Notes: generated by a model from the letters alone, not told the origin. DNA of 41,457 bases from an uncultured Thermodesulfobacteriota bacterium (GCA_964609705.1 CAZSTT010000001.1:16420-57876), one strand, 5' to 3'. Numbered from the stretch's first letter, positions 1,565 to 38,296 are shown. Numbers and translations are program-made.

Positions 1565-2107
1565 ATGAATCTGGCGGATCGATGGCATCGTATTTATTCC
1601 AAGACCATCGGGGCCTTCCGTATTTTTACCATCCGGGAAGATGGTTATCGATTACCCCGCAGTCATCAGGAAGCCCCTTTTTATATCCTGGAAAGTAATG
1701 ATTGGGTCAATGTGATTCCGATAACTGAAGATGGAAAGGTTTTATTAATCAGGCAATTCCGTTTTGGTATTGAGGAAGTAACGCTGGAAATACCTGGGGG
1801 AATTGTAGACTCCGGGTATACCCCCATGGAAGCGGCCCGGAAAGAACTTCTCGAGGAAACCGGTTATTCCTCGGACCATTGGGAATATCTGGGGGTTGTC
1901 CATCCCAATCCGGCTTTTCTTAACAACCGCTGTCACAGTTTTCTGGCCCGGAATGTAACAAAAATCACTGAAATGTCCCCTGAAGAGAGCGAAGAATTTG
2001 AGGCCCTCCAAGTCCCCCTGGTGGAAATCAAAAATTTAATCGGACAGGGAATCATCTCGCATTCCCTGGTGATTTGTGCCTTTTATCTGCATCAGAATCG
2101 GTACTGA
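1565..2107 (+). CDS. NUDIX hydrolase (ADP-ribose pyrophosphatase-like)
   Basis: Nudix box GGIVDSGYTPMEAARKELLEETGY. I moved the start to ATG 1565, which follows a GGGAGG SD; the ORF track starts at 1529 in the same frame. Confidence 0.85.
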   Translation: MNLADRWHRIYSKTIGAFRIFTIREDGYRLPRSHQEAPFYILESNDWVNVIPITEDGKVLLIRQFRFGIEEVTLEIPGGIVDSGYTPMEAARKELLEETGYSSDHWEYLGVVHPNPAFLNNRCHSFLARNVTKITEMSPEESEEFEALQVPLVEIKNLIGQGIISHSLVICAFYLHQNRY

Positions 2108-2121
2108 TTTTACTTCTGAGA

Positions 2122-2150
2122 TTGACCCGCCTTCCAGGCTGTGCTAAGTT
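2122..2150 (+). promoter_or_regulatory. Candidate sigma-70 promoter for the small Lys-rich ORF
   Basis: TTGACC (2122-2127), 17-nt spacer, TAAGTT (2145-2150), about 45 nt upstream of ATG 2195. Confidence 0.3.
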
Positions 2151-2194
2151 AAGTTAATAAAAGGTATTGAAAACCGAACAACGGGAGGATTCCA

Positions 2195-2296
2195 ATGGCA
2201 AAATCAATGGACACCAAAAAAGAAACCAAAAAGAAACCGGCCAAGACCGCTAAAGAAAAAAAGAAAGCCAAGCAGGAAAAGAAAAAGGGGAAATAG
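2195..2296 (+). CDS. Small lysine-rich basic protein, 33 aa (MAKSMDTKKETKKKPAKTAKEKKKAKQEKKKGK); not in the ORF track
   Basis: ATG preceded by GGGAGGA at 5-nt spacing, ending in TAG at 2294-2296. The track ORF 2204..2410 (-) is its low-complexity mirror image. Confidence 0.5.
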   Translation: MAKSMDTKKETKKKPAKTAKEKKKAKQEKKKGK

Positions 2297-2387
2297 TTTA
2301 TCGGAAGTATTTTTAGGACGGCATCCGGCCGATCGGTCGTTCAACTTTGTTGAACTAAAAGAAGGCATCGATTCGGATGCCGGATCC

Positions 2388-2471
2388 CGATCTCCTGGGG
2401 AGCTCGGCAAAGCCGAGCGGACCGCCCGTATCGTGGTGCTACGCCACCAGGAGCGTGGCCCGACGGTTTAA
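2388..2471. repeat. Copy A of a conserved roughly 85-nt structured element (second copy at 36035..36123)
   Basis: Hairpins GCTCGGC-aaa-GCCGAGC (2402-2418) and GTGGTG-cta-CGCCAC (2433-2447). The core GGACCGCCCGTATCGTGGTGCTACGCCAC...CGACGGTTTAA aligns with GGCCGACCGTATTGTGGTGCCACGCCAC...TGACGGTTTAA at 36.07-36.12 kb. Confidence 0.55.
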
Positions 2472-2785
2472 TATTTATTCCCCACCTTAGCGCCGAAAAT
2501 CCCGGGCCAGATTTTTATGGAGGGTCTCCCCCGGCCCGGGAAGAGGCGAGCTCCGGTTTTTTCTCAAAACAGTACCCTTAAAACGACTCGTTCCTCCTAC
2601 AGCCCGACAGCACTGAAAATTACTTTCTTTACCGAGGGCAATCCCTTCCCCCATTCCTATTTTTTTACAAAATTCGATATACCGAGATTATCTGCCGGAA
2701 AATTTTTTCAGGATAGTCAGCCAGTCTGGTCCTGAAAGATTTACCCCTCGAATATTGTTTTCCAGACCAGCCACAACCGCCAGTT

Positions 2786-2806
2786 TTTTTTACAATGTGT
2801 AAAAAA
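2786..2806. promoter_or_regulatory. Palindromic candidate upstream activator site (TTTTTACA-atg-TGTAAAAA)
   Basis: Perfect 9-bp inverted repeat centred 128 bp upstream of the GG of the -24 element at 2924. The same motif occurs at 11915-11932. Confidence 0.4.
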
Positions 2807-2922
2807 GAACATGACCCTGAGGTGACTAGATACCTATTCAAGGGGAAGAAGGGGCGGGGCCCCTTTCTTAAGAATTCATTTAATTTCAGGTTGTTATTTA
2901 AACAAACCGAGTTGCCCGGTTT

Positions 2923-2938
2923 TGGTATGGACCTTGCA
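2923..2938 (+). promoter_or_regulatory. Sigma-54 (-24/-12) type promoter candidate
   Basis: TGGTATG-GACC-TTGCA versus consensus TGGCACG-N4-TTGCW, with correct GG/GC spacing, 115 nt upstream of ATG 3053. Confidence 0.5.
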
Positions 2939-3052
2939 AAAAAAAGTGTAACCCCAATGAGAACGGAGGTGATTGGAAGAAACCACCGGCTTTTGTTTAG
3001 TAAAACTTCTCTTCAATCAAGTTGAGTCAGTAAAGTCAAGGAGGAAATTATT

Positions 3053-3613
3053 ATGGCAGAAATGTCGAAAACACGTGGAACAATCAAGTTTTTGTTCTGG
3101 ATCCTGGCGGCGGCGGGTTTGTTCTATTACGCTTTCCACACCTACAATTCAGGACAGTTGGTCAGTTGGTATTATTATAAGGCCAAGACCGATGGCTATG
3201 CGGTAAATGCCGATACACTCAAAGGCGCCAATAAAGAAAAGCCGGCCCTGGTGCAGATCGGTCCCTTTGAAAAGATTGAAGGCCTTCAGGCCGTTCCGGT
3301 TAAAAAAGGAGATCGGCTGCCGGTTAATGCCAATGGCATTATAACTCCTGAACAGCTTAAAAAAGGTGAGCGGGCTACCCTGGAGGATAAAATTATCAAG
3401 GTGACCATGCCGGTTAAGATAAGAGAGGCCAAGGGTTTTAAATATAAAGATACCTTCAAGCACAAAGGGATTCAAACCAATCCCTGGGCCGCTGTCTGGA
3501 ATGTGGGCCTGATCCTGTTGATAGGGCTCAGCCTGGGGCTCACGGCCGAGGGATTCACCGATATGATGGGGTATAAACTGGAAAAGATCGACCATTTTGA
3601 GGGCGGACACTAA
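3053..3613 (+). CDS. Hypothetical bitopic membrane protein (N- and C-terminal TM segments, roughly 120-aa exposed middle)
   Basis: 186-aa ORF with SD AAGGAGGA upstream. Hydrophobic stretches FLFWILAAAGLFYYAF and AAVWNVGLILLIGLSLGL. First gene of a tightly spaced + strand operon. Confidence 0.7.
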   Translation: MAEMSKTRGTIKFLFWILAAAGLFYYAFHTYNSGQLVSWYYYKAKTDGYAVNADTLKGANKEKPALVQIGPFEKIEGLQAVPVKKGDRLPVNANGIITPEQLKKGERATLEDKIIKVTMPVKIREAKGFKYKDTFKHKGIQTNPWAAVWNVGLILLIGLSLGLTAEGFTDMMGYKLEKIDHFEGGH

Positions 3614-3624
3614 AGGAGGAAATT

Positions 3625-4692
3625 ATGTTTGAATTTTTAATAGCAGGTATGCAGGCCCCTATATTCTTACTGGTCCTGACCGGATTCACGGTGGGGATAG
3701 TCGGGGGGTTTATCGGAGTCGGCGGCGGCTATATGGTCACCCCGGCCTTGATTGTTTTCGGATTTCCCGGATACATGGCTTCGGGAATCGATATGACCCA
3801 TATTGCCGGCAAAGGGGTAGTGGCCACCATCAGGCACCGGCAGCTCGGCAACATTGACTGGGTTTTGGGTCTGGCCATGATCGGCGGGACCATGCTGGGT
3901 GTGGAACAAGGGGTCCGGCTGCTTACTTATACCAAAGAATTGGGGCTTTCCGGAATTATTCTTTTAACCGCCTCGGTGATCATTATGCTGGGGCTCTTTA
4001 TTTATACCCAGATCGAGACCCGATCGGCCCATAAAAAGATTGAGAAGATGTCTAAGGACGGGGAACATGTCGGAAGGGAAGTTATGACCAGTAAGGGTCC
4101 GGCCTTTTTTCAAAGAATTCCTCTTTTCCCCATTGTCCGCTGCCGGGTGGCCAAGATCGTGGTCTCCATGTGGGTGATCGTGGTGGTCGGGCTGGTTACC
4201 GGCGTCTTGGCCGGGTTTTTGGGGGTGGGGGGCGGTTTCATTCGCGTTCCGGCCCTGATCTATATCGTCGGGGCTTCCACCCACATTGCCGTGGGGACCG
4301 ACCTTCTGGAAATAGCGGTTTCCGGAGGATATGGGGCCTTGAGACATTCCATGATGGGAAATGTGGATATGATTGCCGTGCTCTTCATGATCGTCGGGGC
4401 CATGTTCGGGACTCAATTCGGGAGCATCGCCACCTCCTATGTCAGGGGACCGGCCATCCGCTATATCCTCAGTTATTCCTTGATCCTGGCCACGGTCGGG
4501 GCCTTTCTGAGACTCGGCTACATGATGACCGGGTCGAAGTATGAGATCCTGTCTTTTCTGGCGGTGGTCTTTACCCTGGGAGAAATGATCTTCCTCTGTC
4601 TTTTTATTGTTTCACTGGTGATTTTTTCCGTACGCCATAAGCATGGGAAAAAGGTCCCGGCCTGGGTGCCTTCCCTGGTGGTGTCCAATTAA
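3625..4692 (+). CDS. TSUP (TauE/SafE, DUF81) family anion/sulfite-type permease
   Basis: Polytopic 355-aa protein with the duplicated TSUP signature GGFIGVGGGYMVTPALI / AGFLGVGGGFIRVPALIY. SD AAAGGAGGA lies 12 nt after the previous stop. Confidence 0.85.
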   Translation: MFEFLIAGMQAPIFLLVLTGFTVGIVGGFIGVGGGYMVTPALIVFGFPGYMASGIDMTHIAGKGVVATIRHRQLGNIDWVLGLAMIGGTMLGVEQGVRLLTYTKELGLSGIILLTASVIIMLGLFIYTQIETRSAHKKIEKMSKDGEHVGREVMTSKGPAFFQRIPLFPIVRCRVAKIVVSMWVIVVVGLVTGVLAGFLGVGGGFIRVPALIYIVGASTHIAVGTDLLEIAVSGGYGALRHSMMGNVDMIAVLFMIVGAMFGTQFGSIATSYVRGPAIRYILSYSLILATVGAFLRLGYMMTGSKYEILSFLAVVFTLGEMIFLCLFIVSLVIFSVRHKHGKKVPAWVPSLVVSN

Positions 4693-4717
4693 ATAACGGG
4701 GCGAAAGTGGAGAACCT

Positions 4718-4912
4718 ATGAGAATTCCGGTGAATATTTTGCACATCGATTCTGAATATCAGGTTCACCACTTGGTTATTGAGGAAGGATTATTGAACCA
4801 TTCAAGGATTTCATTGGAGACGGCTATTGCCTTCCTGAAGTCGAGAAAGTTCGACCTAATCCTTTCCGAACCCCATAATAAAGTATTATTAGAAAAAACA
4901 AAGGAGAATTAA
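4718..4912 (+). CDS. Hypothetical 64-aa protein resembling the first half of a receiver domain with non-canonical acidic residues
   Basis: SD GGAG 5 nt upstream. ILHIDSE...AIAFLKSRKFDLILSE parallels the beta1-alpha1-beta2-alpha2-beta3 pattern (xxVDDE...PDLILLD) of CheY-like receivers, with Glu at the phospho-Asp position. Confidence 0.45.
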   Translation: MRIPVNILHIDSEYQVHHLVIEEGLLNHSRISLETAIAFLKSRKFDLILSEPHNKVLLEKTKEN

Positions 4913-4914
4913 AT

Positions 4915-5022
4915 ATGAGATGGTTTATCGATTCCATGTTCGGGTATTGGATCCTTCTTCTGGCTTTTTCCTTAGGCGTGTCGGCCGTCATTTATGAGGT
5001 CTGGCTGCGCGGAAACTTATAG
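4915..5022 (+). CDS. Small hydrophobic protein, 35 aa (MRWFIDSMFGYWILLLAFSLGVSAVIYEVWLRGNL); not in the ORF track
   Basis: ATG 4915 preceded by AAGGAGAA, with a single predicted TM helix. It sits in a 3-nt gap after the previous gene and 12 nt before the next. Confidence 0.5.
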   Translation: MRWFIDSMFGYWILLLAFSLGVSAVIYEVWLRGNL

Positions 5023-5034
5023 GGGGGTGAATCC

Positions 5035-5238
5035 ATGAAATTATTATTTCAGATTGTCGGCAATTTGATCCTTTACGGATATCTACTCTGGTCCCTCTAT
5101 CATTCTACTATTGTCGAATGGGACCCCTGGGATGCCTTTACCGTGGTCTTTGTCTTGTTTGTGGCCATAGTCACCTCCTTGATGCCCGCTCTTCATGCCT
5201 CTAAAACTTCTCCGGGGACTTATCCTTATGACGACTGA
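5035..5238 (+). CDS. Small membrane protein (2 TM), 67 aa
   Basis: SD GGGGGGTG upstream, with two hydrophobic helices. Confidence 0.55.
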   Translation: MKLLFQIVGNLILYGYLLWSLYHSTIVEWDPWDAFTVVFVLFVAIVTSLMPALHASKTSPGTYPYDD

Positions 5239-5872
5239 AGTCGAGGCCTTACGGACCAAAATCCGTCAGCTCTACCCCAAACGTCAAAGGGGTGATCTGA
5301 CGGAAAAGGTCTTTCAGAAAGAGCTGATCGAGCGCACGCTGGACTTGTATCGGGCGCTCCTTAAGGCCCGTTTCCAAAAGGGGGAGGCTATTCAGAAAGA
5401 ACATCATGTGGTCCGCGCCCATACCCGATTGACCCATTCTGTCTTAAGAGAACCGGAACAGGAGGCGGTCAGCCTCTTTGCTACTGATCGCCGGCTGTTC
5501 TGTGTTCAAGCCTGTTTGATGCCCGACCATCCGCCCACCGCGGATGATAAGGATCAGACCGTCATCAGGGAAATTCCCTTTAAGAAAAACCTTTCAATCA
5601 CCCCTCGACGTCAGATTAGATGGGGGGAGATCGGTGTGGGAGGGGCCATGGGGGCTTTTGCTCTCCTCTTCGCCTCTTGGCTCTCCTTCACCGGCCCATT
5701 TCTGATCGGTCTGGGAGCGGCCGGTATGGTCCATGGCCTCATACTCCCCACCCGTTGGCTGGAAATTAAAAACCCTGAATCGGAATCGGCTCAAGACCCG
5801 ATCATCATTTATGCCCTTAGAAAAAAAAGTGCTCGAAACCTGGTGCAATATATCCAGGTCAGAAAGGGGTAG
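5195..5872 (+). CDS. Hypothetical protein with a central TM hairpin (alternative start ATG 5228, MTTEVEAL...)
   Basis: 225-aa ORF overlapping the previous gene. Hydrophobic GVGGAMGAFALLFASWLSFTGPFLIGLGAAGMVHGLIL. Its stop lies 3 nt before the receiver gene. Confidence 0.6.
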   Translation: MPLKLLRGLILMTTEVEALRTKIRQLYPKRQRGDLTEKVFQKELIERTLDLYRALLKARFQKGEAIQKEHHVVRAHTRLTHSVLREPEQEAVSLFATDRRLFCVQACLMPDHPPTADDKDQTVIREIPFKKNLSITPRRQIRWGEIGVGGAMGAFALLFASWLSFTGPFLIGLGAAGMVHGLILPTRWLEIKNPESESAQDPIIIYALRKKSARNLVQYIQVRKG

Positions 5873-5874
5873 GG

Positions 5875-6267
5875 ATGAAAGGGAAAAAAGTTCTACTGGT
5901 GGATGATGAAGTTGATTTCACCGCCGGTTTAAGCAAGGTGTTGCGTCGCCGGGGGGTTGAGGTGGAAACCGCTTCCGACGGATTTACCGCCGTATCGCGA
6001 ATTGTTAAAGAACCCTTCGATGTCATCGTCCTGGATGTTAAGATGCCGGGAATGGATGGAATCCAGGTTTTAGCCGAGATCAAACGGTTAAACATCAACA
6101 CCCAAGTCATTTTACTGACCGGGCATCTTTCCCTTTCCGAGGAGGAAACAGGTTTGAAAGAAGGGGCGTTTGCCTATTTGTTTAAACCCTTCCCCATTTT
6201 GAAACTGGTGGATTTGATTGGAGAGGCAGCTCGGAAAAACTTGAAACCGGGAGTAGATGACCGATGA
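5875..6267 (+). CDS. Single-domain response regulator (CheY-like receiver)
   Basis: LLVDDE, VLDVKMPGMDG, LLTGH and KPF are receiver hallmarks. No output domain. Confidence 0.9.
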   Translation: MKGKKVLLVDDEVDFTAGLSKVLRRRGVEVETASDGFTAVSRIVKEPFDVIVLDVKMPGMDGIQVLAEIKRLNINTQVILLTGHLSLSEEETGLKEGAFAYLFKPFPILKLVDLIGEAARKNLKPGVDDR

Positions 6268-6376
6268 CCGATACTGGAGGTCGGATACCGGATATCCAGT
6301 CGTTGGCCTCAGGTCTTTGACTTTAAGGTTTCAACGAATTCTTGAATCCTCGCTCGACTTCCTATATTATTAGAAA

Positions 6377-9046
6377 ATGCAAGAAAATATTTCAGACAAT
6401 CCTTCTGATCAACAACCGGCCTGGTACCAGTCGGGGGGACGAAAAATTTGGAGGGGATTCCTTTTTTTTCTGGAAGTGATCGGACTTCGCCGGTCAAACG
6501 GGGTCGATCAATCAGCCCGGGTGACCCGGTTAAAACAAAATCATACCGAATTCCGCAAGCTCCTTTCCGCCAATAACAGTTTTCTTGAAACGATGACCGA
6601 TCTGGAAGAAAAATACCTGGAACAGGGTTTTTTCGATCGGACTTATATTCAACGGAGGGTTTTAAGAGCTATCGCCGATATTCACACCATGATTGATACT
6701 ATTATGGCGATTTCTAATAGTCGATATCCTGCGTTGCGTGAGCGGTTTGAAGGGATCGTGTTTTCCCTGACCAGATTAATCGAGGGCTCGGGAAGCGGAG
6801 TTCCCCTAGCATGGGTAAGGGATTTACCGGCTTTAGATAAAAGCCAGACTGATCTGGTCGGGGGAAAGGCGGCGAATCTGGGGGAAATCCGGAATGTCCT
6901 GGATCTGCCCACGCCGGATGGATTTGTGGTCACCACCGAAGGATATCGACTTCTTCTGGAAAAGGGAGGGGTTAAATCCTGGCTCCAAGATAAGGACCTG
7001 GAACTATTGACCACCCAGGATGTGGAAGAAATCAGCCGAACGATTCAGGAACAATTCCAGACCATTCATGTCCCTTCGTCCTTTAATGAGGCCATCCTAG
7101 GGGCATATGACCGACTGATCCAAAGAATAGGAACCCCGGTCTCCCTGGCCGTGCGATCCAGTGCCTTGGGGGAAGATGGCGGATTTTCATTTGCCGGGCA
7201 ATTTCTGACTCTTTTGAATATCAAGCGTGAAGGGTTGGTGGAGGCTTATCTCCAGGTGGCCGCCAGCCTGTTTTCTTCCGAAGCCATTCATTACCGCCGA
7301 TTGCATGGGATCCCTGGACATTCGGCTGAGATGGCCGTGGTGTTTGTTGCCATGGTAAATGCCCAGGCCAGCGGAGTGACCTTTTCCAAAGATCCCAATC
7401 AACCCGATTCCAATAAAATCCTGATCCAGGCTATTCGCGGGTTGGGAGTCCCTTTGGTGGAGGGACGGACCTCCCCGGAAGTGATCTTCGTTCCCAACAA
7501 TTTAAATCAATCCCAAATCGTTCGTTCTCCTTCACAGCAAAGGACTCGCCTTCTCCTTACTGACCAGGAGGAACTTAAAGAGGATCTGATCGGATTTGGG
7601 GAAACCGAGCAAGATTTTTTGACTGACGAAGAGGTTGTCCTCCTTGGCCAATGGGCTGTGCTGTTAGAGGATCATTTTGGAAGTCCGCAGGATATCGAAT
7701 GGGCCATGGATCGGGACAGGAAGATTTATCTCCTCCAATCCCGGCCGTTACGCCTGCTGGAACAGAAAGGTGAGGCCGGACGACCTTTGCCCGGATACCC
7801 CGTACTGCTAAGCGGGGGGGAAGTGGCCTGCCCGGGAACCGGTACCGGACCGGCGGTCCACATGTCGGAGGATGATGACCTCAACACTTTTCCCGAAGGA
7901 GGAATTTTGATCGCCCGGAGGTCTTCCCCACGCTTTGTTCGACTCATGTCCAAGGTCCGGGCCATCGTCACCGATTTTGGAAGTACCACCGGTCATATGG
8001 CCTCCTTGTCCAGGGAATTCGGGGTGCCGACCTTGTTGAACACCAAAACCGCCACACAGCAAATCCGCCCAGGGACTATCCTCACTGTGGATGTCGCCAA
8101 TAGGCTGGTCTATGAGGGCGAAGTTCCCCTGCCGGAATGGAAAGGGAAAACGGAAAAATGGGCCTTGGAAAAATCATCGACCCCGGAACTGGAGTACCTT
8201 AAAAAGGTCATCGAACTCATTCAACCCCTTAATCTGACGGATCCCTTGTCCAAGAACTTCAAAGAAGATCAGTGCCGAACCCTTCACGATCTGGCCAGGT
8301 TCATTCATGAGAAATCCTACGAAGAGATGTTTATTTTGGGTGAACAATTAGGAGATCTTCGAGCCTCCAGTTATCATCTGGATGTTTTCCTGCCGATTGA
8401 CCTTTACCTGATCGATCTGGGGGGCGGGGTGGAGGGAGTCCCCAAACAAGGTAAGATTAAACGGTCCCAGATCCTTTCCATCCCCTTAACTGCCCTTCTG
8501 GAAGGGATGCTCCATGAAAAGATTCCCCGGTACGGTTCGAAACCGATGGATTATAAGGGTTTCTTTTCCATCATGATGCGGCATGCTGTAAACAGCCCGG
8601 AAGGAGAGCAATCCTTTCAGGATCCCTGCTATGCCATTATTTCCGACCACTATCTAAATTACACCGCCAGGGTGGGATATCATTTCAGTGTGGTGGACAC
8701 TTATTGCAGCAGTACGCCGAATAAGAATTACATCAGTCTGACTTTCCGGGGAGGTGCAGCCGACCTGGTTCGAAGGGCTCGCCGAACTAGGGCCATTGCC
8801 GGCATTCTTCGGGAACATGGGTTCCATGTGGGGTTGGCTCACGATGTGGTCACCGCCCGGCTGGGAAAAGCCTCCCAAGAGGAAATGATCGGTCATTTAA
8901 AAATGATCGGTAGCCTCTTCCAATTCTTTCGTCAAATGGACGTTTCTATGATGAGCGAGGATTCGGTCGACCAATTCAAAGATGCCTTTCTGCGGGGGGA
9001 GTATGATTTCGGGCAAGAAAGATCAGAAATGACGATCAAAGATTAA
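6377..9046 (+). CDS. PEP-utilising enzyme family protein (PpsA/PPDK-like ATP-grasp plus phospho-His swivel domain) with a non-canonical C-terminal domain
   Basis: GGKAANLGE, AVRSSALGEDG and FAGQ fit the PPDK_N type. GSTTGHMASLSREFGVPTL is the mobile His domain. In the last roughly 300 aa I cannot find the NDL / CGE-type motifs of the PEP/pyruvate TIM barrel. Confidence 0.8.
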   Translation: MQENISDNPSDQQPAWYQSGGRKIWRGFLFFLEVIGLRRSNGVDQSARVTRLKQNHTEFRKLLSANNSFLETMTDLEEKYLEQGFFDRTYIQRRVLRAIADIHTMIDTIMAISNSRYPALRERFEGIVFSLTRLIEGSGSGVPLAWVRDLPALDKSQTDLVGGKAANLGEIRNVLDLPTPDGFVVTTEGYRLLLEKGGVKSWLQDKDLELLTTQDVEEISRTIQEQFQTIHVPSSFNEAILGAYDRLIQRIGTPVSLAVRSSALGEDGGFSFAGQFLTLLNIKREGLVEAYLQVAASLFSSEAIHYRRLHGIPGHSAEMAVVFVAMVNAQASGVTFSKDPNQPDSNKILIQAIRGLGVPLVEGRTSPEVIFVPNNLNQSQIVRSPSQQRTRLLLTDQEELKEDLIGFGETEQDFLTDEEVVLLGQWAVLLEDHFGSPQDIEWAMDRDRKIYLLQSRPLRLLEQKGEAGRPLPGYPVLLSGGEVACPGTGTGPAVHMSEDDDLNTFPEGGILIARRSSPRFVRLMSKVRAIVTDFGSTTGHMASLSREFGVPTLLNTKTATQQIRPGTILTVDVANRLVYEGEVPLPEWKGKTEKWALEKSSTPELEYLKKVIELIQPLNLTDPLSKNFKEDQCRTLHDLARFIHEKSYEEMFILGEQLGDLRASSYHLDVFLPIDLYLIDLGGGVEGVPKQGKIKRSQILSIPLTALLEGMLHEKIPRYGSKPMDYKGFFSIMMRHAVNSPEGEQSFQDPCYAIISDHYLNYTARVGYHFSVVDTYCSSTPNKNYISLTFRGGAADLVRRARRTRAIAGILREHGFHVGLAHDVVTARLGKASQEEMIGHLKMIGSLFQFFRQMDVSMMSEDSVDQFKDAFLRGEYDFGQERSEMTIKD

Positions 9047-9085
9047 AAAAGAACCTAAGGGAAAATGTTGCTTCAATATCGATAT

Positions 9086-9502
9086 TCAATTTTTAGTCTG
9101 AGTATCGAAGACCTCTTTGGAAATGGACTTGGATTCGCTGGCATTTTCAATAGCCGAAACCAGGGTTTCCACCGGGCAGGGTTTGAGCAGCACCAGGGCC
9201 ACCCCCTTATCCATGACCTGGACCACCCGGTCGATATCCAGGTTGCCGGTCAGGAGGATCACCGGGGTCAGGGAATCTTTGGCGCGGATTTCCTGTAAAA
9301 CGGCCAGGCCATCCATTCCAGGCATCCTAAGATCCAGCACAATCACATCCGGTTCTTCCATGGAAAGCAGTTTAAGGGCTGAAAGGCCGTCAAAAGCCGC
9401 TTTAACCTCCATCCCCCTTCTCTTAAGCACCTTGGTTAAAGACTCAACAAAAATCCTTTCATCGTCGATCAGTATAACCCGGATGGATTTAGAACTGTTC
9501 AC
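9086..9502 (-). CDS. Single-domain response regulator (CheY-like receiver)
   Basis: ILIDDE, VLDLRMPGMDG, LLTGN and KP motifs. GTG start overlaps the upstream stop (GTGA). Confidence 0.9.
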   Translation of the reverse strand: MNSSKSIRVILIDDERIFVESLTKVLKRRGMEVKAAFDGLSALKLLSMEEPDVIVLDLRMPGMDGLAVLQEIRAKDSLTPVILLTGNLDIDRVVQVMDKGVALVLLKPCPVETLVSAIENASESKSISKEVFDTQTKN

Positions 9503-9921
9503 TTTTTCCCCTCTTCTCCAGCTTCCGGACCTTCGTCCTTTTCTTCAAGAATCAACTTTCTTTGATAAGCCTGTCGAATTTTTTCGTGGAGATCTTCAAA
9601 CCGGACCGGTTTCATAAGAAAATCAAAAGCCCCCAACTGCATCCCGTCTATGCCTGATTCGAAAGAGCCGTGACCGGTAAGGATAATCACTTCCACCCCG
9701 GGTTTTTTCCCCTTGATCAACTTCAAGGCGGCCATACCGTCCATTCCCGGCATCTTTAAATCCAAGACAATAACATCAAAATCGTATTCATCGACCGCTT
9801 GGACTGCGCTTTCTCCGTTGTAAACCGTGACGATATCATAGCCCCGTTTGGATATCAGTTTGGCGATATTATTGGCAAAGGCTACTTCATCATCGACCAA
9901 CAGGATTTTGGCTTTTTTCAT
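9499..9921 (-). CDS. Single-domain response regulator (CheY-like receiver)
   Basis: LLVDDE, VLDLKMPGMDG, ILTGHG and KP motifs. ATG overlaps the kinase stop (ATGA). Confidence 0.9.
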   Translation of the reverse strand: MKKAKILLVDDEVAFANNIAKLISKRGYDIVTVYNGESAVQAVDEYDFDVIVLDLKMPGMDGMAALKLIKGKKPGVEVIILTGHGSFESGIDGMQLGAFDFLMKPVRFEDLHEKIRQAYQRKLILEEKDEGPEAGEEGKK

Positions 9922-11717
9922 TTCCTGCTGTCCTCCCTGGGTATTTGGGGTGCCGTTGGGGCAAGGTTTTCCTGCCCGGTGTCCTGGGAATCTTCTGCCC
10001 GATTAAAGGGGAGGAAGAGGTTGAACTGGGCCCCTTTCCCGACTTCACTTTGCACCGATATGTCGCCCCCCAATTGTTGGATGATGCTGTAAGAAATAGA
10101 AAGCCCCAAACCGGTTCCCTTACCCACCGGTTTCGTAGTAAAGAAAGGATCGAATATTTTATCCAGGTTCTCAGGAGGAATCCCTGATCCGGTATCGGCA
10201 ACGATGATCTCAACCCCCTGCCTTTCAAGGTTGGAACGGGTGCTGATGCTGATCGTCCCATAAGGTTTCCCTTCATGGGCATCAATGGCATTGACAATCA
10301 GGTTTAAAAATACCTGTTGAAGTTGAGAGGCATCGGATCGGATAGGTCCTAAATCCTGCTCCAAGTTGGTATTGAATTGGACCCCTCTCCCCTTGGCCTT
10401 CCCTTCCATCAGTTGGATTACTTCCTTCAAAAAGGCATTGAGGTTGACCATCTCAATCCGGGAACCGGTCCGACGGGAAAACCTCAATAAGTTATGGGTA
10501 ATGAGATTACATCGTTGTACCTGCGTATCGATCTGGGACAAAGATTCCTCAAGTTCTTTTTTGAAAGCCTCATCCAGTCCTTCTGTTTCGTCAATGAAAT
10601 CTCGAATAACCTGGTTCTCGGTCAGAATGATCGCTAAGGGGTTATTGATCTCGTGGGCGACTCCGGCCGAGAGTTCCCCCAAGGAGGCCAGTTTGCCGGC
10701 TTGCATCAACTGTCTATTTAATTGTTCGGCTTGCTCATCCCTTTTTTTGATGGTCTTCATCATGGTTCTGGTAATGATCACAGTGATGATAACAATGCCC
10801 AGGAGACTCAAGTGAAGGAAAATCAGAGTAGCCAGATTGGCATGATTGACCGTTCGGAAGGCTTCGGAATAATCCTGTTTAACAATCAGCAGCCATTGCG
10901 GGTCTTTAAGCCAGGCAAAAGCAAAGATTTGACGGCCGGCGGTTTGTCGGGTTTCTGCTTTAGAAGGGCTTAGAATACGAGTTCCGCTGTTTTCTTTAAA
11001 TTGTTCTAAGGATAAAGGGGCCTTTTCCATTATCGCCCCCTGGGAACGGGGGCTGGTTTGAAAAATACCTTTCCGGTTTAGAAGATAGGCTTCTCCGGTG
11101 CGGCCGATTTTTACGTTTTCAACCAAGGATCGTAGGTATTCCGTATCGATGCTGGCCCGCAATATCCAGCGGCGATTCCCTTCCACCCGTAAAAAGGCAA
11201 TGATAAAGTGGGGTGTATTTCGAAACCCCGTAAACATATCGCTGATGAAGACCTTTTTTTCCATTAATTCTCTAAACCAAAAGGATTGGGAATAGTCTTT
11301 GTCCATCAAATTATAAGGACCGATATAAGCTAAATGCCTGCCTTGTTCATTAATCAATCCTAAATCGGTAAAGAATTGACCTTCCTGGTTGATGGCAGTC
11401 AAGACGGCCATGAGGTTGCCCGGTTTTTGCAACTCCGCCAGGGAATGGGTTAAGGCCACCAATTGAAGATCGGCGGTTCTTTCTTTTAAAAACAACTCAA
11501 TGATTTTTCGGTGATCCTCAACCTGACTTTGGAAATATTCCGTCACCCGGGCACTGGAAAAATTGGAATAATAAATGTAGATACCCCACCCCACCAGAAG
11601 CAAAGGGACGAGAGAACTGATCAAGGTCAGGAAGACAAATTTTCGGTAGAGCCGGCGATAACGCGTTCCCTTTTGTTCCAATACTTGATGGGATTGAATA
11701 TTTTGATCCGTATCCAA
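9918..11717 (-). CDS. Sensor histidine kinase with a periplasmic Cache-like domain
   Basis: Two TM segments flank a roughly 250-aa Cache-like region. H-box GVAHEINNPL, N-box LNLIVNAIDA, G-boxes DTGSGI and GTGLGLS. TTG start behind a GAGGT SD. Confidence 0.9.
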   Translation of the reverse strand: MDTDQNIQSHQVLEQKGTRYRRLYRKFVFLTLISSLVPLLLVGWGIYIYYSNFSSARVTEYFQSQVEDHRKIIELFLKERTADLQLVALTHSLAELQKPGNLMAVLTAINQEGQFFTDLGLINEQGRHLAYIGPYNLMDKDYSQSFWFRELMEKKVFISDMFTGFRNTPHFIIAFLRVEGNRRWILRASIDTEYLRSLVENVKIGRTGEAYLLNRKGIFQTSPRSQGAIMEKAPLSLEQFKENSGTRILSPSKAETRQTAGRQIFAFAWLKDPQWLLIVKQDYSEAFRTVNHANLATLIFLHLSLLGIVIITVIITRTMMKTIKKRDEQAEQLNRQLMQAGKLASLGELSAGVAHEINNPLAIILTENQVIRDFIDETEGLDEAFKKELEESLSQIDTQVQRCNLITHNLLRFSRRTGSRIEMVNLNAFLKEVIQLMEGKAKGRGVQFNTNLEQDLGPIRSDASQLQQVFLNLIVNAIDAHEGKPYGTISISTRSNLERQGVEIIVADTGSGIPPENLDKIFDPFFTTKPVGKGTGLGLSISYSIIQQLGGDISVQSEVGKGAQFNLFLPFNRAEDSQDTGQENLAPTAPQIPREDSRK

Positions 11718-11795
11718 ATTAACCTCAATCGGAATGATGATTTTTATTGAACAGGATAATCCTTTTGGAAGGGACCAACCTTACTTAATTCTTAA

Positions 11796-11812
11796 GGCAA
11801 CTATCATGCCAA
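11796..11812 (-). promoter_or_regulatory. Sigma-54 (-24/-12) type promoter candidate for the kinase operon
   Basis: The minus strand reads TGGCATG-ATAG-TTGCC (consensus TGGCACG-N4-TTGCW), about 80 nt upstream of the start at 11717. Confidence 0.5.
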
Positions 11813-11914
11813 TAGAAAATTCTTTCAAAATCCGTTTTAATTTTTTTATCTTATTGAAATTAATAAGCTTAAAAGTTATTTCAGGAAAGGATTGCCGAAG
11901 AAAACTGCCAATTC

Positions 11915-11932
11915 TTTTTACACGGTGTAAAG
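11915..11932. promoter_or_regulatory. Palindromic candidate upstream activator site (TTTTTACA-cgg-TGTAAAG)
   Basis: Same half-sites and 3-nt spacer as 2786-2806, centred 114 bp upstream of the -24 GG at 11810. Confidence 0.4.
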
Positions 11933-12051
11933 AATCGATGACAGAGACCGCCTGAAAAAAATGAGGGAGTTTTTCAAAAGACTGGAAAGGAACAGGGGAT
12001 ATCAGCTAGGCCCCCCTCAAATAATGCCATTCAATATCGGCAAGTTCATGG

Positions 12052-13239
12052 TCAACTTTTTTGTGCCCAAACTTTTTCCCGTAATCCCCGGGGAACCCAA
12101 AACCCCTGGGAAGGACAATGTTCCAGACAACAATAACATTCTATACACAGATTCGATTTAAGCTGAAGGCCCCTCTCCGACAGACTCAGGGCCTGAGCCG
12201 GGCAGGCCTGAACGCATAAGCCGCATTCCTGGCAGTTTTCCGGTTTGACCCTGGGTTTGGCTTCGTAGAGCCAATCAAAGGCCTTTCCGATCAACCAGGC
12301 CGGTATGATTGCCTCCGCCCATTCCCGTGTTCTGGTGAAGGGATGTTTAAAACCGGGTACCGGCAATTCAGGCCAACCGGCGTCTCCCAGGAGTTCAATT
12401 GCGGAGGGATCGGCTGTTCCTAATCCGGCTTCCGACCCCAGGATAATCGAATGGATCTTGGCCGGACTAAAACCCATGATAGTGGATGCTGCAACATCCA
12501 AGGCTACCGGATCGGTCGACGCCAGAAGCCGGCAGACCGGCCTGAGCTGCCCGTGGGTCGGACCGGCCCCCTCCATAGCGGCAACCCCATCCATGAGGTT
12601 TAAGATCCGGGGGACTTTGGCCTTTATCCCTCCCCAAATATCGACCAGGGCCTGGGCCATGACCGGACCGTTGGGCGCTGCTACATGAACCTCCCGTTTA
12701 AGGGAACCCGGCAGAAAACCTAAAAAGTTTTTGATCGCCCCGGTGAGCCCGGTCAGGATGTGTGTTTTTAGTTTGGGGAGGTTGACAATAGCGTCGATTT
12801 GATCCAGCAGGGCCGTGGCTTTGAAGCGGGAATATATTTTTCCCTTGGGATTTTCGATCTCGATAAGTCCGACTTCTTCCAGGTTGACTAATTCGGCTTT
12901 TAGGCGGGAGGCCGTCATTTCCAGGCCCATCAGGGCATAGGCCCGTTTGGTTTTTCCGTAAGACCCCATACCGCCGGAATCGGCAATAAACAGATTGACC
13001 TGATAATGGCTTCGGAGATATTGTCCTACCGCCTCAACCACTTCTCCCCGGGTGTTGACCGGCTGATCGGGTCCATGGTTGGCGGAAAGGCAATTGGGCT
13101 TGAGCAGGACCCGGTCGCCCCTGGACAAAGGGAGCGGCTCCAAGGCGGATAAAATGTTTTCAACCGCCCTGGAAAGATGGGTTGATTGATAATCAGGACA
13201 GCGGCAGACGCTGACCCGGCCACTATATTCAGACATCAA
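12052..13239 (-). CDS. DUF362-family protein with a C-terminal 2x[4Fe-4S] ferredoxin-type domain
   Basis: The body resembles DUF362 (family recalled from memory). The C-terminus has CQECGLCVQACP and CIECYCCLEHCP cluster motifs. The start overlaps the upstream stop (ATGA). Confidence 0.8.
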   Translation of the reverse strand: MMSEYSGRVSVCRCPDYQSTHLSRAVENILSALEPLPLSRGDRVLLKPNCLSANHGPDQPVNTRGEVVEAVGQYLRSHYQVNLFIADSGGMGSYGKTKRAYALMGLEMTASRLKAELVNLEEVGLIEIENPKGKIYSRFKATALLDQIDAIVNLPKLKTHILTGLTGAIKNFLGFLPGSLKREVHVAAPNGPVMAQALVDIWGGIKAKVPRILNLMDGVAAMEGAGPTHGQLRPVCRLLASTDPVALDVAASTIMGFSPAKIHSIILGSEAGLGTADPSAIELLGDAGWPELPVPGFKHPFTRTREWAEAIIPAWLIGKAFDWLYEAKPRVKPENCQECGLCVQACPAQALSLSERGLQLKSNLCIECYCCLEHCPSQGFWVPRGLREKVWAQKS

Positions 13240-18059: not shown

Positions 18060-18306
18060 GAGAACCACACTTACGATAGACGACGATGTTCTGGACAAAG
18101 CGAAAGCTGTGGCGGCAAAACTCCGTGCGCCCTTTCGGCACGTGGTTAATGAGGCGCTCCGTACCGGATTGCAGATGGTTGAGGATACCACGCTAAAAAC
18201 TCGATCCTATCGCACCCGCCCCCACAAGATGGGGTTGAAAGCTGGAAGGAATCTGGACAACATCCAAGAACTCTTATCTCAGATCGAGGGGGAAGATCAC
18301 CGGTGA
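18058..18306 (+). CDS. vapB: Type II antitoxin, VapB-like
   Basis: 82 aa. The N-terminus MRTTLTIDDDVLDKAKAVA is typical of VapB-family antitoxins. The stop overlaps the vapC start (GTGA). Confidence 0.8.
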   Translation: MRTTLTIDDDVLDKAKAVAAKLRAPFRHVVNEALRTGLQMVEDTTLKTRSYRTRPHKMGLKAGRNLDNIQELLSQIEGEDHR

Positions 18307-18731
18307 TCCTCGTGGATGCCAACATCCTTTTGTATGCCGAAGACCAACTGAGTCCATACCATGAGGCAGCATGCCGATGGTGGGATACTCAATTGTCCGG
18401 ATCCTCGCCCGTGTGCTTTTGCTGGACCGTCCTTGGCGCGTTCATCCGCATCGGCACGAATCCGCGCGTCTTTGAGAACCCATTGTCTCTCGATCAGGCC
18501 CTCTCTCGCGTACAAAGCTGGCTGGATCAACCCTGCACCCGCCTCATTCATCCTACCGCCCGGCATTGGATCATTTTTCGGAAAATGTTGATCGAAGGCC
18601 AAGCCGTCGCCAACCTGGTAACGGACGCGCATCTGGCTGCTCTGGCCAGTGAACACGGCTGTGAGTTAATCTCCACCGACACCGATTTCTCGCGCTTTCC
18701 TGGGATCAAGTGGAAAAATCCATTAAAGTAA
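18303..18731 (+). CDS. vapC: Type II toxin, PIN-domain ribonuclease VapC
   Basis: ILVDANILLYA (first acidic residue), LVTDAHLAALA and ISTDTDFSRF give the PIN-domain pattern. 142 aa. Confidence 0.85.
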   Translation: MILVDANILLYAEDQLSPYHEAACRWWDTQLSGSSPVCFCWTVLGAFIRIGTNPRVFENPLSLDQALSRVQSWLDQPCTRLIHPTARHWIIFRKMLIEGQAVANLVTDAHLAALASEHGCELISTDTDFSRFPGIKWKNPLK

Positions 18732-36984: not shown

Positions 36985-36988
36985 CCTA

Positions 36989-37918: not shown

Positions 37919-37981
37919 AATTCATCATCCGACTGAAGCTTTCTGTTTCAAGGCCCGGAGAATCTTCCAGGCAAGAAAGAC

Positions 37982-38251: not shown

Positions 38252-38296
38252 TTACAAAACAAAAAGAGGAGATACTTTTTACAGTATCTCCTCTTT
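38252..38296 (-). terminator. Rho-independent terminator of sat
   Basis: Perfect 14-bp stem AAAGAGGAGATACT (38263-76)/AGTATCTCCTCTTT (38283-96). On the minus strand it is followed by TTGTTTTGTAA. Confidence 0.7.

What the first reader, a model, noticed from the sequence alone, without database searches (positions are those of the whole stretch)
2786..11932. Two convergent operons share sigma-54-type promoters and the same upstream palindrome: candidate undescribed signalling/transport module
On the + strand, TGGTATG-GACC-TTGCA (2923-2938) fits TGGCACG-N4-TTGCW with exact GG/GC spacing, 115 nt before ATG 3053. On the - strand, TGGCATG-ATAG-TTGC (11811 to 11797) fits equally well, about 80 nt before the Cache-kinase start. 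Centred 128 bp and 114 bp upstream of the respective GG dinucleotides are near-identical palindromes: TTTTTACA-atg-TGTAAAAA (2787-2806) and TTTTTACA-cgg-TGTAAAG (11915-11932). That is the geometry expected for a shared enhancer-binding-protein site. The two tightly packed operons converge at 9046/9086. Together they encode a bitopic membrane protein, a TSUP permease, four small or unknown proteins, three output-less receivers, one Cache kinase and an atypical PEP-utilising enzyme. No AAA+ activator is encoded in the window, so the regulator must lie elsewhere. I do not recognise this gene combination as a described system.
Basis: partly seen in the sequence, partly recalled or inferred. Interest (0 to 1): 0.72.

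Follow-up and report, generated by a model that had tools for sequence, protein, structure and literature searches.

The report
Sigma-54 regulon for an anion-transporter signalling module
Two facing operons of a likely sulfate-reducing bacterium carry conserved sigma-54 promoters and a shared activator-binding site, and they encode a widespread anion-permease, receiver and kinase module of unknown function; a domain-level look-alike in Desulfovibrio was flagged only by a nitrate-resistance phenotype.

Summary
Both -24/-12 elements and both palindromes sit at the stated coordinates, far above chance, and the ten genes have the stated domains.

Comparison with 79 related loci supports the regulatory reading:
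- TTTACA-N3-TGTAAA occurs 40 times in 1.46 Mb (about 0.03 expected; 0 in 849 kb of control loci).
- 34 of 41 sites lie 112-258 bp upstream of a strict -24/-12 element.

The palindrome is the junction of two inverted 17-bp sites, TGTAAA-N5-CTGRCA, forming a 37-bp composite. That 17-mer equals the motif predicted for the NtrC-type activators DVU0110/DVUA0057 upstream of a TSUP-permease operon in Desulfovibrio vulgaris.

An orthologous NtrC-type activator (REC-AAA+-HTH) lies beside the cluster in at least 13 related loci. Two loci fetched through that activator alone carry the same site and promoter. The window encodes no such activator, so the regulator does lie elsewhere.

The gene set is not wholly undescribed. 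It parallels the Desulfovibrio 'nitrate cluster' (TauE, kinase, receiver, PPDK_N/swivel dikinase), though only at domain level. Function is still unknown. The dikinase C-terminal domain has no known fold.

Verdict: a new variant of a known kind, of moderate interest.

The parts
2778..2814 (.). Upstream activator site of the + operon. It is a 37-bp composite of two inverted 17-mers (2778-2794 and 2798-2814) around a 3-bp spacer. The centre is at 2796, 128 bp upstream of the GG.
   Evidence: On the - strand, 2778-2794 reads TGTAAAAAAAACTGGCG. The outer part of the right half is degenerate. The site is invariant in 7 relatives.
2923..2938 (+). Sigma-54 type -24/-12 promoter of operon A-G: TGGTATG-GACC-TTGCA.
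   Evidence: It is conserved as TGGTAYAGACCTTGC in close relatives. A high-scoring site precedes gene A in 29 of 49 loci.
3053..3613 (+). Gene A: 186-aa membrane protein with two transmembrane helices (2-32 and 144-171) flanking a beta-rich domain similar to the N-terminal domains of MoeA/gephyrin-E.
   Evidence: Pfam MoeA_N at 28.5 bits, below the cut-off. AF2 model pLDDT 85.5. Foldseek against MoeA 1uz5: E = 2e-5. All homologues are annotated 'hypothetical protein'.
3625..4692 (+). Gene B: TSUP/TauE-family permease, 355 aa.
   Evidence: Pfam TauE, E = 1.3e-37. Present in 57 of the related loci.
4718..4912 (+). Gene C: 64-aa ORF of doubtful status. It resembles the N-terminal half of a receiver domain and is conserved only in L001 and L002.
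   Evidence: tblastn gives 41% identity over 49 aa to the receiver of the L051 activator, E = 0.21.
5035..5238 (+). Gene D: 67-aa hydrophobic protein.
   Evidence: conserved in most loci. No Pfam or NCBIfam hit.
5195..5872 (+). Gene E: 225-aa protein with a hydrophobic hairpin near the C-terminus and no family assignment. The true start is probably the ATG at 5228, so the overlap with D is short.
   Evidence: Present in 48 loci.
5875..6267 (+). Gene F: stand-alone receiver domain with canonical DD, D54, T82 and K104, directly upstream of G.
   Evidence: Pfam Response_reg, E = 5e-28. Best NCBIfam matches are receivers of NtrC/AtoC-type regulators.
6377..9046 (+). Gene G: 889-aa dikinase-like enzyme. 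It has an N-terminal helical region, an ATP-grasp domain (PPDK_N, 159-464), a swivelling His domain (505-574, GSTTGH540MAS) and a conserved C-terminal domain of about 300 aa with no known fold.
   Evidence: The match to the PEP synthase model stops at position 471 of 798. No PDB sequence or fold match for residues 590-889.
9086..9502 (-). Gene H: stand-alone receiver domain, 138 aa.
   Evidence: Pfam Response_reg, E = 5.6e-29.
9499..9921 (-). Gene I: stand-alone receiver domain, 140 aa.
   Evidence: Pfam Response_reg, E = 2.3e-31.
9918..11717 (-). Gene J: sensor histidine kinase with dCache_1, HisKA and HATPase domains. The kinase core is AtoS/ZraS-like.
   Evidence: Present in 53 loci.
11797..11812 (-). 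Sigma-54 type -24/-12 promoter of operon J-I-H: TGGCATG-ATAG-TTGC.
   Evidence: It is conserved as TGGCATRATAGTTGC in 7 relatives. A high-scoring site precedes the kinase in 19 of 36 loci.
11906..11942 (.). The centre is at 11924, 114 bp upstream of the GG.
   Evidence: On the - strand, 11906-11922 reads TGTAAAAAGAATTGGCA. The site is invariant in relatives.

Best explanation
Shown by sequence and comparison:
- The two convergent operons are each driven by a sigma-54 (-24/-12) promoter.
- About 114-128 bp upstream of each promoter lies the same 37-bp activator site. It consists of two inverted 17-bp elements, TGTAAA-N5-CTGRCA (each a TGT-N11-ACA pseudo-palindrome), separated by 3 bp.

Inferred, strongly:
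- The site is bound by an NtrC-family response-regulator activator (REC-AAA+-HTH_8, about 475 aa). Its orthologues are encoded beside this gene cluster in many relatives but not in this window.
- Two adjacent dimer sites would nucleate the AAA+ oligomer, which loops to the sigma-54 holoenzyme.

Inferred, moderately:
- The activator is phosphorylated by a membrane kinase. In the closest relatives that carry it nearby, this is a 4HB_MCP-type kinase encoded just upstream.
- In a Desulfobacteraceae-like group the activator gene follows kinase J and receivers I and H in one co-directional string. Kinase J may therefore feed the same activator.
- Because the J-I-H operon carries the site, the circuit would be positively autoregulated.

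Inferred, weakly:
- The output is a TSUP/TauE anion permease with three accessory membrane proteins. It is coupled to a receiver (F) and a His-swivel dikinase (G) that modulate or energise transport of an oxyanion.
- This is by analogy with the Desulfovibrio 'nitrate cluster', whose loss makes cells nitrate-resistant.
For: Sites in the window:
- They are exact and beyond chance.

Conservation across related loci:
- Phylogenetic footprints cover the activator site, -24/-12 and little else.
- 40 exact palindromes occur in 1.46 Mb of window plus related loci, against 0.03 expected from composition. None occur in 849 kb of control loci anchored on unrelated activators.
- 34 of 41 sites lie 112-258 bp upstream of a strict -24/-12 element in the correct orientation, with modes near 112-131 and 195-224 bp.
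- High-scoring -24/-12 sites: 29 of 49 loci upstream of A, 19 of 36 upstream of J, background 2%.

The composite site and its known counterpart:
- The symmetrised profile of 80 half-sites shows the outer CTGrCA at +13 to +18.
- The half-site equals the DVU0110 motif TGTAAAAAAAGCTGACA listed upstream of DVU0132-0133, a TSUP operon (PMC4641369 supplement). L035 carries that exact 17-mer.

The candidate activator:
- Orthologous activators (67-97% identical to each other, shared HTH GNRSRAAKLLGLSRPTLQ.KIEKY) lie next to the cluster in L004, L006, L007, L009-L011, L022, L035, L036, L046, L050, L051 and L076.
- Loci L082 and L083, fetched only through this activator, show kinase, then activator, then palindrome plus sigma-54 promoter (114-116 bp apart), then receiver and dikinase. 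TauE operons nearby carry the same site.
- The core of kinase J and the receivers resemble AtoS/ZraS and NtrC-type partners.

The module and its analogue:
- The module is conserved: G in 78 loci, TauE 57, kinase 53, receiver 52, E 48, A 44.
- Fusions of G with a receiver (P0196) and with an LMW phosphatase (P0256) exist.
- An anion-selective porin gene lies beside the cluster in three loci.
- Nitrate-cluster domain composition and phenotype: PMC4001038.
Against: - No transcription start, sigma-54 dependence or protein-DNA binding has been measured for any of these loci.
- The DVU0110 motif itself is a computational prediction, supported only by DAP-chip binding to the region (PMC4641369, PMC3333781).
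- The activator is not in the window. I could not show that the source genome has an orthologue.
- Neither DVU0110 nor the nitrate-cluster proteins were available for sequence comparison. Both links rest on motif identity and domain composition.
- About 40% of A-homologue loci show no sigma-54 site within 450 bp. Several loci carry other activator types with no palindrome.
- In the window, the outer parts of the right-hand 17-mers are degenerate.
- The substrate, the direction of transport and the role of G are unknown. The C-terminal domain of G has no fold match.
Confidence: 0.78

Rival explanations
1. The promoters are sigma-54 dependent, but the conserved palindrome is bound by some other DNA-binding protein. 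Candidates are a repressor, an architectural protein or a different class of regulator. The true activator would bind elsewhere or act from solution.
For: - No binding data exist.
- The inner TTTACA-N3-TGTAAA is AT-rich and could bend DNA.
- The window encodes no activator.
Against: - The site lies at classic activator-site distances from -24/-12 and occurs in either orientation relative to the promoter.
- Each half is a TGT-N11-ACA element typical of NtrC/NifA-type sites and identical to the motif assigned to DVU0110/DVUA0057.
- It co-occurs with one orthologous activator family, including in loci fetched via that activator alone.
- It does not resemble the IHF consensus (own knowledge).
Confidence: 0.08
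2. The site is an activator site, but in this genome it is served by a different activator with similar specificity. Examples would be a PrsR-like or other paralogue, as with DVU0110 and DVUA0057 sharing one motif. Kinase J with its receivers would then be an independent pathway acting only on the transporter or dikinase.
For: - Kazakov et al. could not separate DVU0110 from DVUA0057 by motif.
- The three loci closest to the window (window, L001, L002) lack the activator nearby.
- No hit on the 1.6-Mb contig of L001 appears among the best 120 activator homologues.
- In the closest relatives that do have it, the activator has its own 4HB_MCP kinase.
Against: - The activator family beside the cluster is the same orthologous group in 13 or more loci across several orders.
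- PrsR (DVUA0057) is only 39% identical and has a different HTH.
- The activator scores below the PrsR model cut-off, 430 against 502.6 bits.
Confidence: 0.1
3. The -24/-12 matches are not used. The operons are transcribed from sigma-70-type promoters, and the conserved blocks serve another purpose.
For: - No start sites have been mapped.
- A weak sigma-70-like match (9 of 12) overlaps the J promoter region.
Against: - Sigma-70-like matches in the region are no more frequent than in shuffles: 13 found against 10.0 +/- 2.8 expected.
- The -24/-12 elements are invariant in relatives, while the DNA between them and the genes is not.
- They recur in 29 of 49 and 19 of 36 orthologous upstream regions, against a 2% background.
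Confidence: 0.03

Closest known systems
DVU0110/DVUA0057 regulon of Desulfovibrio vulgaris Hildenborough: sigma-54 promoter plus predicted site TGTAAAAAAAGCTGACA upstream of DVU0132-DVU0133, a TSUP permease operon (Rajeev 2011, PMC3333781; Kazakov 2015, PMC4641369).
   Same: - An NtrC-type response-regulator activator and a sigma-54 promoter in front of a TSUP/TauE permease operon.
- The 17-bp motif equals the half-site consensus here (TGTAAA-rAA-NN-CTGrCA).
- The motif is found letter for letter in L035.
   Different: - Here two 17-mers are placed as an inverted pair 3 bp apart, giving a 37-bp site with a near-perfect inner palindrome. The listed Desulfovibrio sites are single 17-mers, some 160-530 bp from the gene.
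- The operon here also carries a receiver and a dikinase, and a second operon (kinase plus two receivers) shares the site.
- Orthology of the activator to DVU0110 was not tested, because no sequence was on hand. It is not PrsR/DVUA0057.
Desulfovibrio 'nitrate cluster', DVU0251-DVU0245 / Dde_0597-Dde_0605 (Korte et al. 2014, PMC4001038).
   Same: - A TauE permease, a hypothetical protein, a sensor histidine kinase, a stand-alone receiver and a PPDK_N plus PEP-utilizers-mobile dikinase without the PEP-binding barrel, all in one cluster in a sulfate reducer.
- A phosphatase neighbours the dikinase there. A distant G homologue here is fused to an LMW phosphatase.
- In L035-L037 the order TauE, E, kinase, receiver, dikinase mirrors the Desulfovibrio order.
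   Different: - The window has the MoeA_N-like membrane protein A plus D and E, which are not listed for Desulfovibrio.
- It lacks the PtxB-like periplasmic protein, DUF169 and the phosphatase.
- The kinase sensor is dCache, not PAS/HAMP.
- The kinase and two extra receivers form a separate convergent operon.
- The nitrate cluster is not in the published sigma-54 regulon lists.
- Sequence homology was not tested.
PEP synthase / pyruvate phosphate dikinase, and the related rifampicin phosphotransferase and PigC/RedH enzymes.
   Same: G has the ATP-grasp nucleotide domain and the swivelling phospho-histidine domain with a T-G-H motif, in the PEP synthase order.
   Different: - The PEP/pyruvate TIM barrel is replaced by a conserved domain of about 300 aa. 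This domain has no Pfam, PDB-sequence or PDB-fold match.
- All equivalog scores are far below their cut-offs.
- G adds an N-terminal helical region of about 145 aa.

Membership tests
Sigma-54 (-24/-12) promoter | GG and GC dinucleotides exactly 10 bp apart within TGGCAC-N5-TTGCW-like context | tested here: met
   TGGTATGGACCTTGCA at 2923-2938 and TGGCATGATAGTTGC at 11811-11797. These are the only two exact matches to TGGYAYG-N4-TTGC in the window, against 0.05 expected.
Sigma-54 (-24/-12) promoter | Element conserved at orthologous promoters | tested here: met
   Invariant blocks in alignments A3 and A4. Found in 29 of 49 and 19 of 36 upstream regions, against a 2% background.
Sigma-54 (-24/-12) promoter | Upstream activator site roughly 80-200 bp upstream | tested here: met
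   Site centres lie 128 and 114 bp upstream of the GG. The same geometry holds in 34 of 41 sites across loci.
Sigma-54 (-24/-12) promoter | Transcription start about 12 nt after the GC; dependence on RpoN and an AAA+ activator | not testable with these tools
   No transcript or genetic data are available. Neither rpoN nor an activator is in the window.
DVU0110/DVUA0057-type activator site | 17-bp TGTAAA-N5-CTGACA (TGT-N11-ACA) element upstream of a sigma-54 promoter | tested here: met
   11906-11922 matches TGTAAA-N5-YTGRCA with 0 mismatches and 2778-2794 with 1 mismatch. An identical 17-mer occurs in L035.
DVU0110/DVUA0057-type activator site | Target operon encodes a TSUP permease | tested here: met
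   Gene B matches TauE with E = 1.3e-37. DVU0132-0133 is described as a TSUP permease operon.
DVU0110/DVUA0057-type activator site | Cognate activator orthologous to DVU0110 or DVUA0057 | tested here: inconclusive
   The cluster-linked activator is not PrsR/DVUA0057: 39% identity, a different HTH, and a score below the TIGR02915 cut-off. DVU0110 is chromosomal and its sequence was not on hand.
Desulfovibrio 'nitrate cluster' | TauE permease, kinase, stand-alone receiver and PPDK_N/mobile-domain dikinase in one cluster | tested here: met
   Domains, compared with Table 3 of PMC4001038.
Desulfovibrio 'nitrate cluster' | PtxB-like periplasmic protein and protein phosphatase in the cluster | tested here: not met
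   Neither is present between 2786 and 11932. An LMW phosphatase is fused to a distant G homologue only.
Desulfovibrio 'nitrate cluster' | Sequence orthology to DVU0251, DVU0247 and DVU0246 | not tested
Names of distant G-family clusters gave no Desulfovibrio entry.
Desulfovibrio 'nitrate cluster' | Loss of function confers nitrate resistance | not testable with these tools
   This is a phenotype.
PEP synthase / PPDK | C-terminal PEP/pyruvate-binding TIM barrel (PEP-utilizers_C) | tested here: not met
   There is no Pfam hit beyond residue 574. The PEP synthase model match ends at position 471 of 798, with 294 bits against a cut-off of 598. No PDB match was found.
PEP synthase / PPDK | ATP-grasp nucleotide domain and swivelling His domain | tested here: met
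   PPDK_N, E = 3.6e-74; PEP-utilizers, E = 3.8e-17. GSTTGHMAS is invariant.
TSUP/TauE permease | Full-length match to the TauE model | tested here: met
   130.2 bits against a cut-off of 32.6, covering residues 16-291.

The most novel reading that the evidence does not exclude
The 889-aa enzyme and its many relatives are a new class of signalling enzyme. It would be an ATP-driven His-swivel dikinase that exchanges phosphoryl groups with, or is gated by, stand-alone receiver domains. Through its unique C-terminal domain it would phosphorylate either an accessory protein of the TSUP permease or the transported oxyanion itself. That would make it a hybrid of PTS-like and two-component logic controlling anion transport in anaerobes.
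Probability: 0.15. Interest if true: 0.85.

Novelty: new variant of a known kind. Interest (0 to 1): 0.5.

Why it matters
If the reading holds, it assigns a regulator family, a defined 37-bp operator and a sigma-54 promoter pair to a gene module that is widespread in anaerobes. The related loci come from MAGs labelled Desulfobacterota, Myxococcales, Acidobacteriota and Nitrospirota.

The only functional clue so far is that losing a domain-level look-alike makes Desulfovibrio resistant to nitrate. That trait matters for nitrate-based control of oil-field souring.

The reading also singles out a large, biochemically untouched family of His-swivel dikinases. At least 150 clusters at 50% identity match full length. 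Their fixed partnership with receiver domains and TSUP permeases gives a concrete entry point: which molecule or protein do they phosphorylate? The regulatory part is conventional in kind. The open question is the output.

Tried and rejected
1. PEP synthase: rejected. The TIM barrel is absent.
2. PrsK/PrsR (PEP-CTERM) system as the regulator: rejected. I fetched DVUA0057 from plasmid pDV1. It is 39% identical, has a different HTH, and the cluster-linked activator scores below the model cut-off.
3. Magnetosome TauE (PMC4287615): unrelated context.
4. Fold of the C-terminal domain of G: the AF2 model has pLDDT 68. Foldseek against PDB gave nothing better than E = 0.04 and TM about 0.2. phmmer against PDB gave nothing.
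5. Riboswitch or structured leader: no Rfam hit at E <= 1 in 2100-12300. The leader fold has z = +1.15.
6. Intrinsic terminator between the convergent operons: none is convincing.
7. Organism names for distant G homologues, sought to reach Desulfovibrio: the clusters carried no useful names.
8. Activator on plasmid records: only generic matches of about 44% identity.
I used the other 78 loci as a negative control instead.
10. Homology between E and the 238-aa protein that follows TauE in Nitrospirota-type clusters: none detected.
11. My first -24/-12 scan used a wrong spacer of N9. It was redone with N8.

Full report
**Observation**

- TGGTATGGACCTTGCA lies at 2923-2938 on the + strand, and TGGCATGATAGTTGC at 11811-11797 on the - strand.
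- TGGYAYG-N4-TTGC occurs exactly twice in the 41.5-kb window, only at these places. Shuffles give 0.05.
- TTTACA-N3-TGTAAA also occurs exactly twice, only here. Shuffles give 0.00.
- The palindrome centres are 128 and 114 bp upstream of the GG.

My first scan used a wrong spacer and was repeated correctly.

**Genes**

Pfam and NCBIfam confirm the gene content.

| Gene | Coordinates | Strand | Product |
|---|---|---|---|
| A | 3053-3613 | + | 186-aa protein with two transmembrane helices |
| B | 3625-4692 | + | TauE/TSUP permease |
| C | 4718-4912 | + | 64-aa ORF |
| D | 5035-5238 | + | 67-aa hydrophobic protein |
| E | 5195-5872 | + | 225 aa, no family |
| F | 5875-6267 | + | Receiver domain |
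| G | 6377-9046 | + | 889 aa, PPDK_N plus swivel domain |
| H | 9086-9502 | - | Receiver domain |
| I | 9499-9921 | - | Receiver domain |
| J | 9918-11717 | - | dCache_1-HisKA-HATPase kinase |

- G has PPDK_N and the PEP-utilizers mobile domain. Its match to PEP synthase models stops at the swivel domain, so the PEP-binding barrel is missing.
- The core of kinase J and the three receivers score best against AtoS/ZraS and NtrC/AtoC/ZraR-type partners.
- The window encodes no sigma-54 activator.
- It does encode ATP sulfurylase at 38403-39674.
- Protein homologues come from Desulfobacca, Syntrophales, Syntrophobacteraceae and similar MAGs. The source is therefore probably a sulfate-reducing member of the Desulfobacterota. 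This is an inference.

**Neighbourhood conservation**

I aligned G homologues and scanned one genome per species. This returned 79 loci.
- tblastn and ORF clustering show the string A-B-(D)-E-(F)-G in about 45-55 loci. The source records are labelled delta-proteobacterial/Thermodesulfobacteriota, Myxococcales and Acidobacteriota.
- The kinase with two receivers lies next to it in about 50 loci. It is either convergent downstream, as in the window, or co-directional upstream.
- No metabolic enzyme is consistently linked.
- Universal stress proteins occur in 10 loci. A phosphate-selective-type anion porin lies between the activator and gene A in three loci.

**Promoters and site across relatives**

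- Alignments of the two upstream regions from the seven closest loci show only a few islands of invariance. These are the palindrome with flanks, the -24/-12 element and, for operon A, a GGAGGTG box in the leader.
- With a simple weighted score, a strong -24/-12 element precedes the A homologue in 29 of 49 loci and the kinase homologue in 19 of 36. Random 450-bp stretches give 2%.
- TTTACA-N3-TGTAAA occurs exactly 40 times in the 1.46 Mb of loci plus window. Base composition predicts 0.03.
- It is absent from 849 kb of control loci that a saturated metagenome scan returned around mostly unrelated activators.
- Of 41 sites, 34 have a strict -24/-12 element 112-258 bp away in the right orientation. 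Preferred distances are near 112-131 and 195-224 bp.
- The 3-bp spacer varies freely.

**What the palindrome is**

A-rich positions lie at +8 to +10 and CTGrCA at +13 to +18 from the centre.
- Each half is thus a 17-mer, TGTAAA-rAA-NN-CTGrCA, a TGT-N11-ACA pseudo-palindrome. Two halves face each other across 3 bp, giving 37 bp in all.
- In the window the left halves are good: 2778-2794 has one mismatch and 11906-11922 has none. The outer parts of the right halves are degenerate.
- The supplement of Kazakov et al. 2015 lists TGTAAAAAAAGCTGACA as the site of the NtrC-type regulators DVU0110/DVUA0057. It lies upstream of DVU0132-DVU0133, an operon with a TSUP permease, in several Desulfovibrio genomes.
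- That is the half-site consensus found here, and L035 carries the identical 17 letters.
- The published motif is a prediction backed by DAP-chip binding to the region.
- Two adjacent dimer sites are the usual way NtrC-type activators assemble (own knowledge).

**The activator**

- A six-frame search for the GAFTGA signature found activator genes in many loci.
- One orthologous group is 67-97% identical among its members. It has REC-AAA+-HTH_8 architecture and a shared HTH, GNRSRAAKLLGLSRPTLQ.KIEKY.
- This group lies directly beside the cluster in L004, L006, L007, L009, L010, L011, L022, L035, L036, L046, L050, L051 and L076. Nearly all of these carry the palindrome; L009 and L076 carry only single 17-mer sites.
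- In L004, L046 and L051 the activator follows its own membrane kinase.
- In L009-L011 and L022 it follows J, I and H in one co-directional, overlapping string.
- Other activator types in other loci are about 40% identical and are not accompanied by the palindrome upstream of A.
- The group is not PrsR. DVUA0057, fetched from plasmid pDV1, is 39% identical with a different HTH. The activator scores 430 bits against the PrsR cut-off of 502.6, and it is also below the NtrC and AtoC cut-offs.

As an independent test I looked up two homologues of the activator on megabase contigs.
- Both loci show a 4HB_MCP kinase, then the activator, then the palindrome plus a sigma-54 promoter 114-116 bp apart, then a receiver and a PPDK_N/swivel dikinase.
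- TauE operons nearby carry the same site.

I could not show that the genome of the window has this activator.

**Proteins A and G**

- An AlphaFold model of A (pLDDT 85.5) has two long helices flanking a beta domain. Foldseek matches that domain to the N-terminal domains of MoeA/gephyrin-E/Cnx1E with E = 2e-5.
- All 575 detected homologues of A are 'hypothetical protein'.
- The C-terminal 300 residues of G gave a moderate model (pLDDT 68). It has no PDB fold match better than E = 0.04 and no PDB sequence match.
- The G family is large. The best 150 clusters at 50% identity nearly all match full length, including the C-terminal domain, at 30-55% identity.
- One member is fused to a receiver domain and another to an LMW phosphotyrosine-phosphatase domain.
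- The receivers F, H and I have the canonical acidic pocket, Thr and Lys. G has the T-G-H motif. These points come from reading the sequences.

**Comparison with the literature**

- Korte et al. 2014 described a 'nitrate cluster' in D. vulgaris and D. alaskensis. It comprises TauE, a hypothetical protein, a PtxB-like protein, a PAS/HAMP kinase, a receiver, a PPDK_N/mobile-domain dikinase and a phosphatase.
- Transposon mutants of this cluster outgrow the wild type in 100-150 mM nitrate. The authors suggest leaky uptake by a thiosulfate transporter.
- The window's module shares the TauE, kinase, receiver and dikinase core. It differs in its accessory proteins and in operon layout.
- I found no later paper on these genes in the library.
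- The nitrate cluster does not appear in the published sigma-54 regulon tables.
- Sequence-level homology to the Desulfovibrio proteins could not be tested here.

**Mechanism and confidence**

| Claim | Confidence |
|---|---|
| Both operons have sigma-54 promoters and share an activator site | About 0.9 |
| The binder is the cluster-linked NtrC-type response regulator, encoded elsewhere in this genome | About 0.75 |
| Kinase J feeds that regulator and so autoregulates its own operon | About 0.4, because the nearest relatives give the activator its own kinase |
| The output is oxyanion transport by the TSUP permease, modulated by receiver F and dikinase G | About 0.35, by analogy and from the porin, MoeA-like and TauE hints |

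What G phosphorylates is unknown.

**Verdict**

The regulatory architecture is a standard kind, and its motif has a published counterpart. The gene module is a variant of a cluster known only by phenotype. Its novelty lies in three things: the composite operator, the assignment of an activator family, and the uncharacterised dikinase family.

Noticed in passing
window 2965-2971: A GGAGGTG box about 17-23 nt into the predicted transcript of operon A is invariant in seven relatives, while the rest of the 5' leader is not. In L004 the leader is deleted and this box serves as the Shine-Dalgarno sequence of gene A. There is no Rfam hit and the fold is unremarkable.
   Followed up: partly
window 4718-4912: The 64-aa ORF C looks like the N-terminal half of a receiver domain: 41% identity over 49 aa to the receiver of the L051 activator, E = 0.21. 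It is found only in the window, L001 and L002. It may be a relic rather than a gene.
   Followed up: partly
window 5195-5238: The mechanical ORF of E overlaps D by 44 nt. An in-frame ATG at 5228 would give an 11-nt overlap and is the more likely start.
   Followed up: no
L046 4348-5760 (-); also L004 and L051: A phosphate-selective-type anion porin gene (Porin_O_P, E = 3e-42) lies between the activator gene and gene A, divergent from A. L003 and L046 have a second copy of the activator site about 125-132 bp upstream of the first; the L046 copy has one mismatch.
   Followed up: partly
P0196 and P0256 (distant homologues of G): In P0196 the G-type dikinase is fused to a C-terminal receiver domain. 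In P0256 it is fused to an N-terminal LMW phosphotyrosine-phosphatase domain. Several members of about 1055-1075 aa have an unassigned C-terminal extension of about 200 aa.
   Followed up: partly
L016 4172 (-), L016 22385 (-), L022 15518 (+), L030 18361 (+), L064 18241 (+), L035 503 (-): More sites pairing the palindrome with a sigma-54 promoter drive other genes near the cluster. These are atypical receiver-like proteins of 135-149 aa, a receiver-dCache kinase fusion, a second dCache kinase, and a 100-aa membrane protein whose C-terminal tail resembles that of A.
   Followed up: partly
L083 5319-5615: The precomputed annotation gives Pfam PF28216 ('DVU0150') for the 98-aa protein just upstream of a TauE gene. 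My own Pfam scan of that ORF found nothing.
   Followed up: no
window 18303-19212: A PIN-domain gene sits next to an IS200-like Y1 transposase.
   Followed up: no
window 36319-39674: MobB (molybdopterin-guanine dinucleotide synthesis), D-Ala-D-Ala ligase and ATP sulfurylase genes are present. The last points to a sulfate reducer.
   Followed up: no
window 23573-23587 (-) and 33791-33807 (-): There is a one-mismatch -24/-12 match inside the rsgA-like ORF, and a one-mismatch 17-mer match inside the PilZ-domain ORF. Neither is paired with the other element, so both are probably chance.
   Followed up: no
window 12052-13239 (-): A DUF362 plus 4Fe-4S ferredoxin-domain gene ends about 110 bp upstream of the activator site of operon J-I-H, on the same strand. 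Homologues follow the kinase operon only in the closest relative.
   Followed up: no
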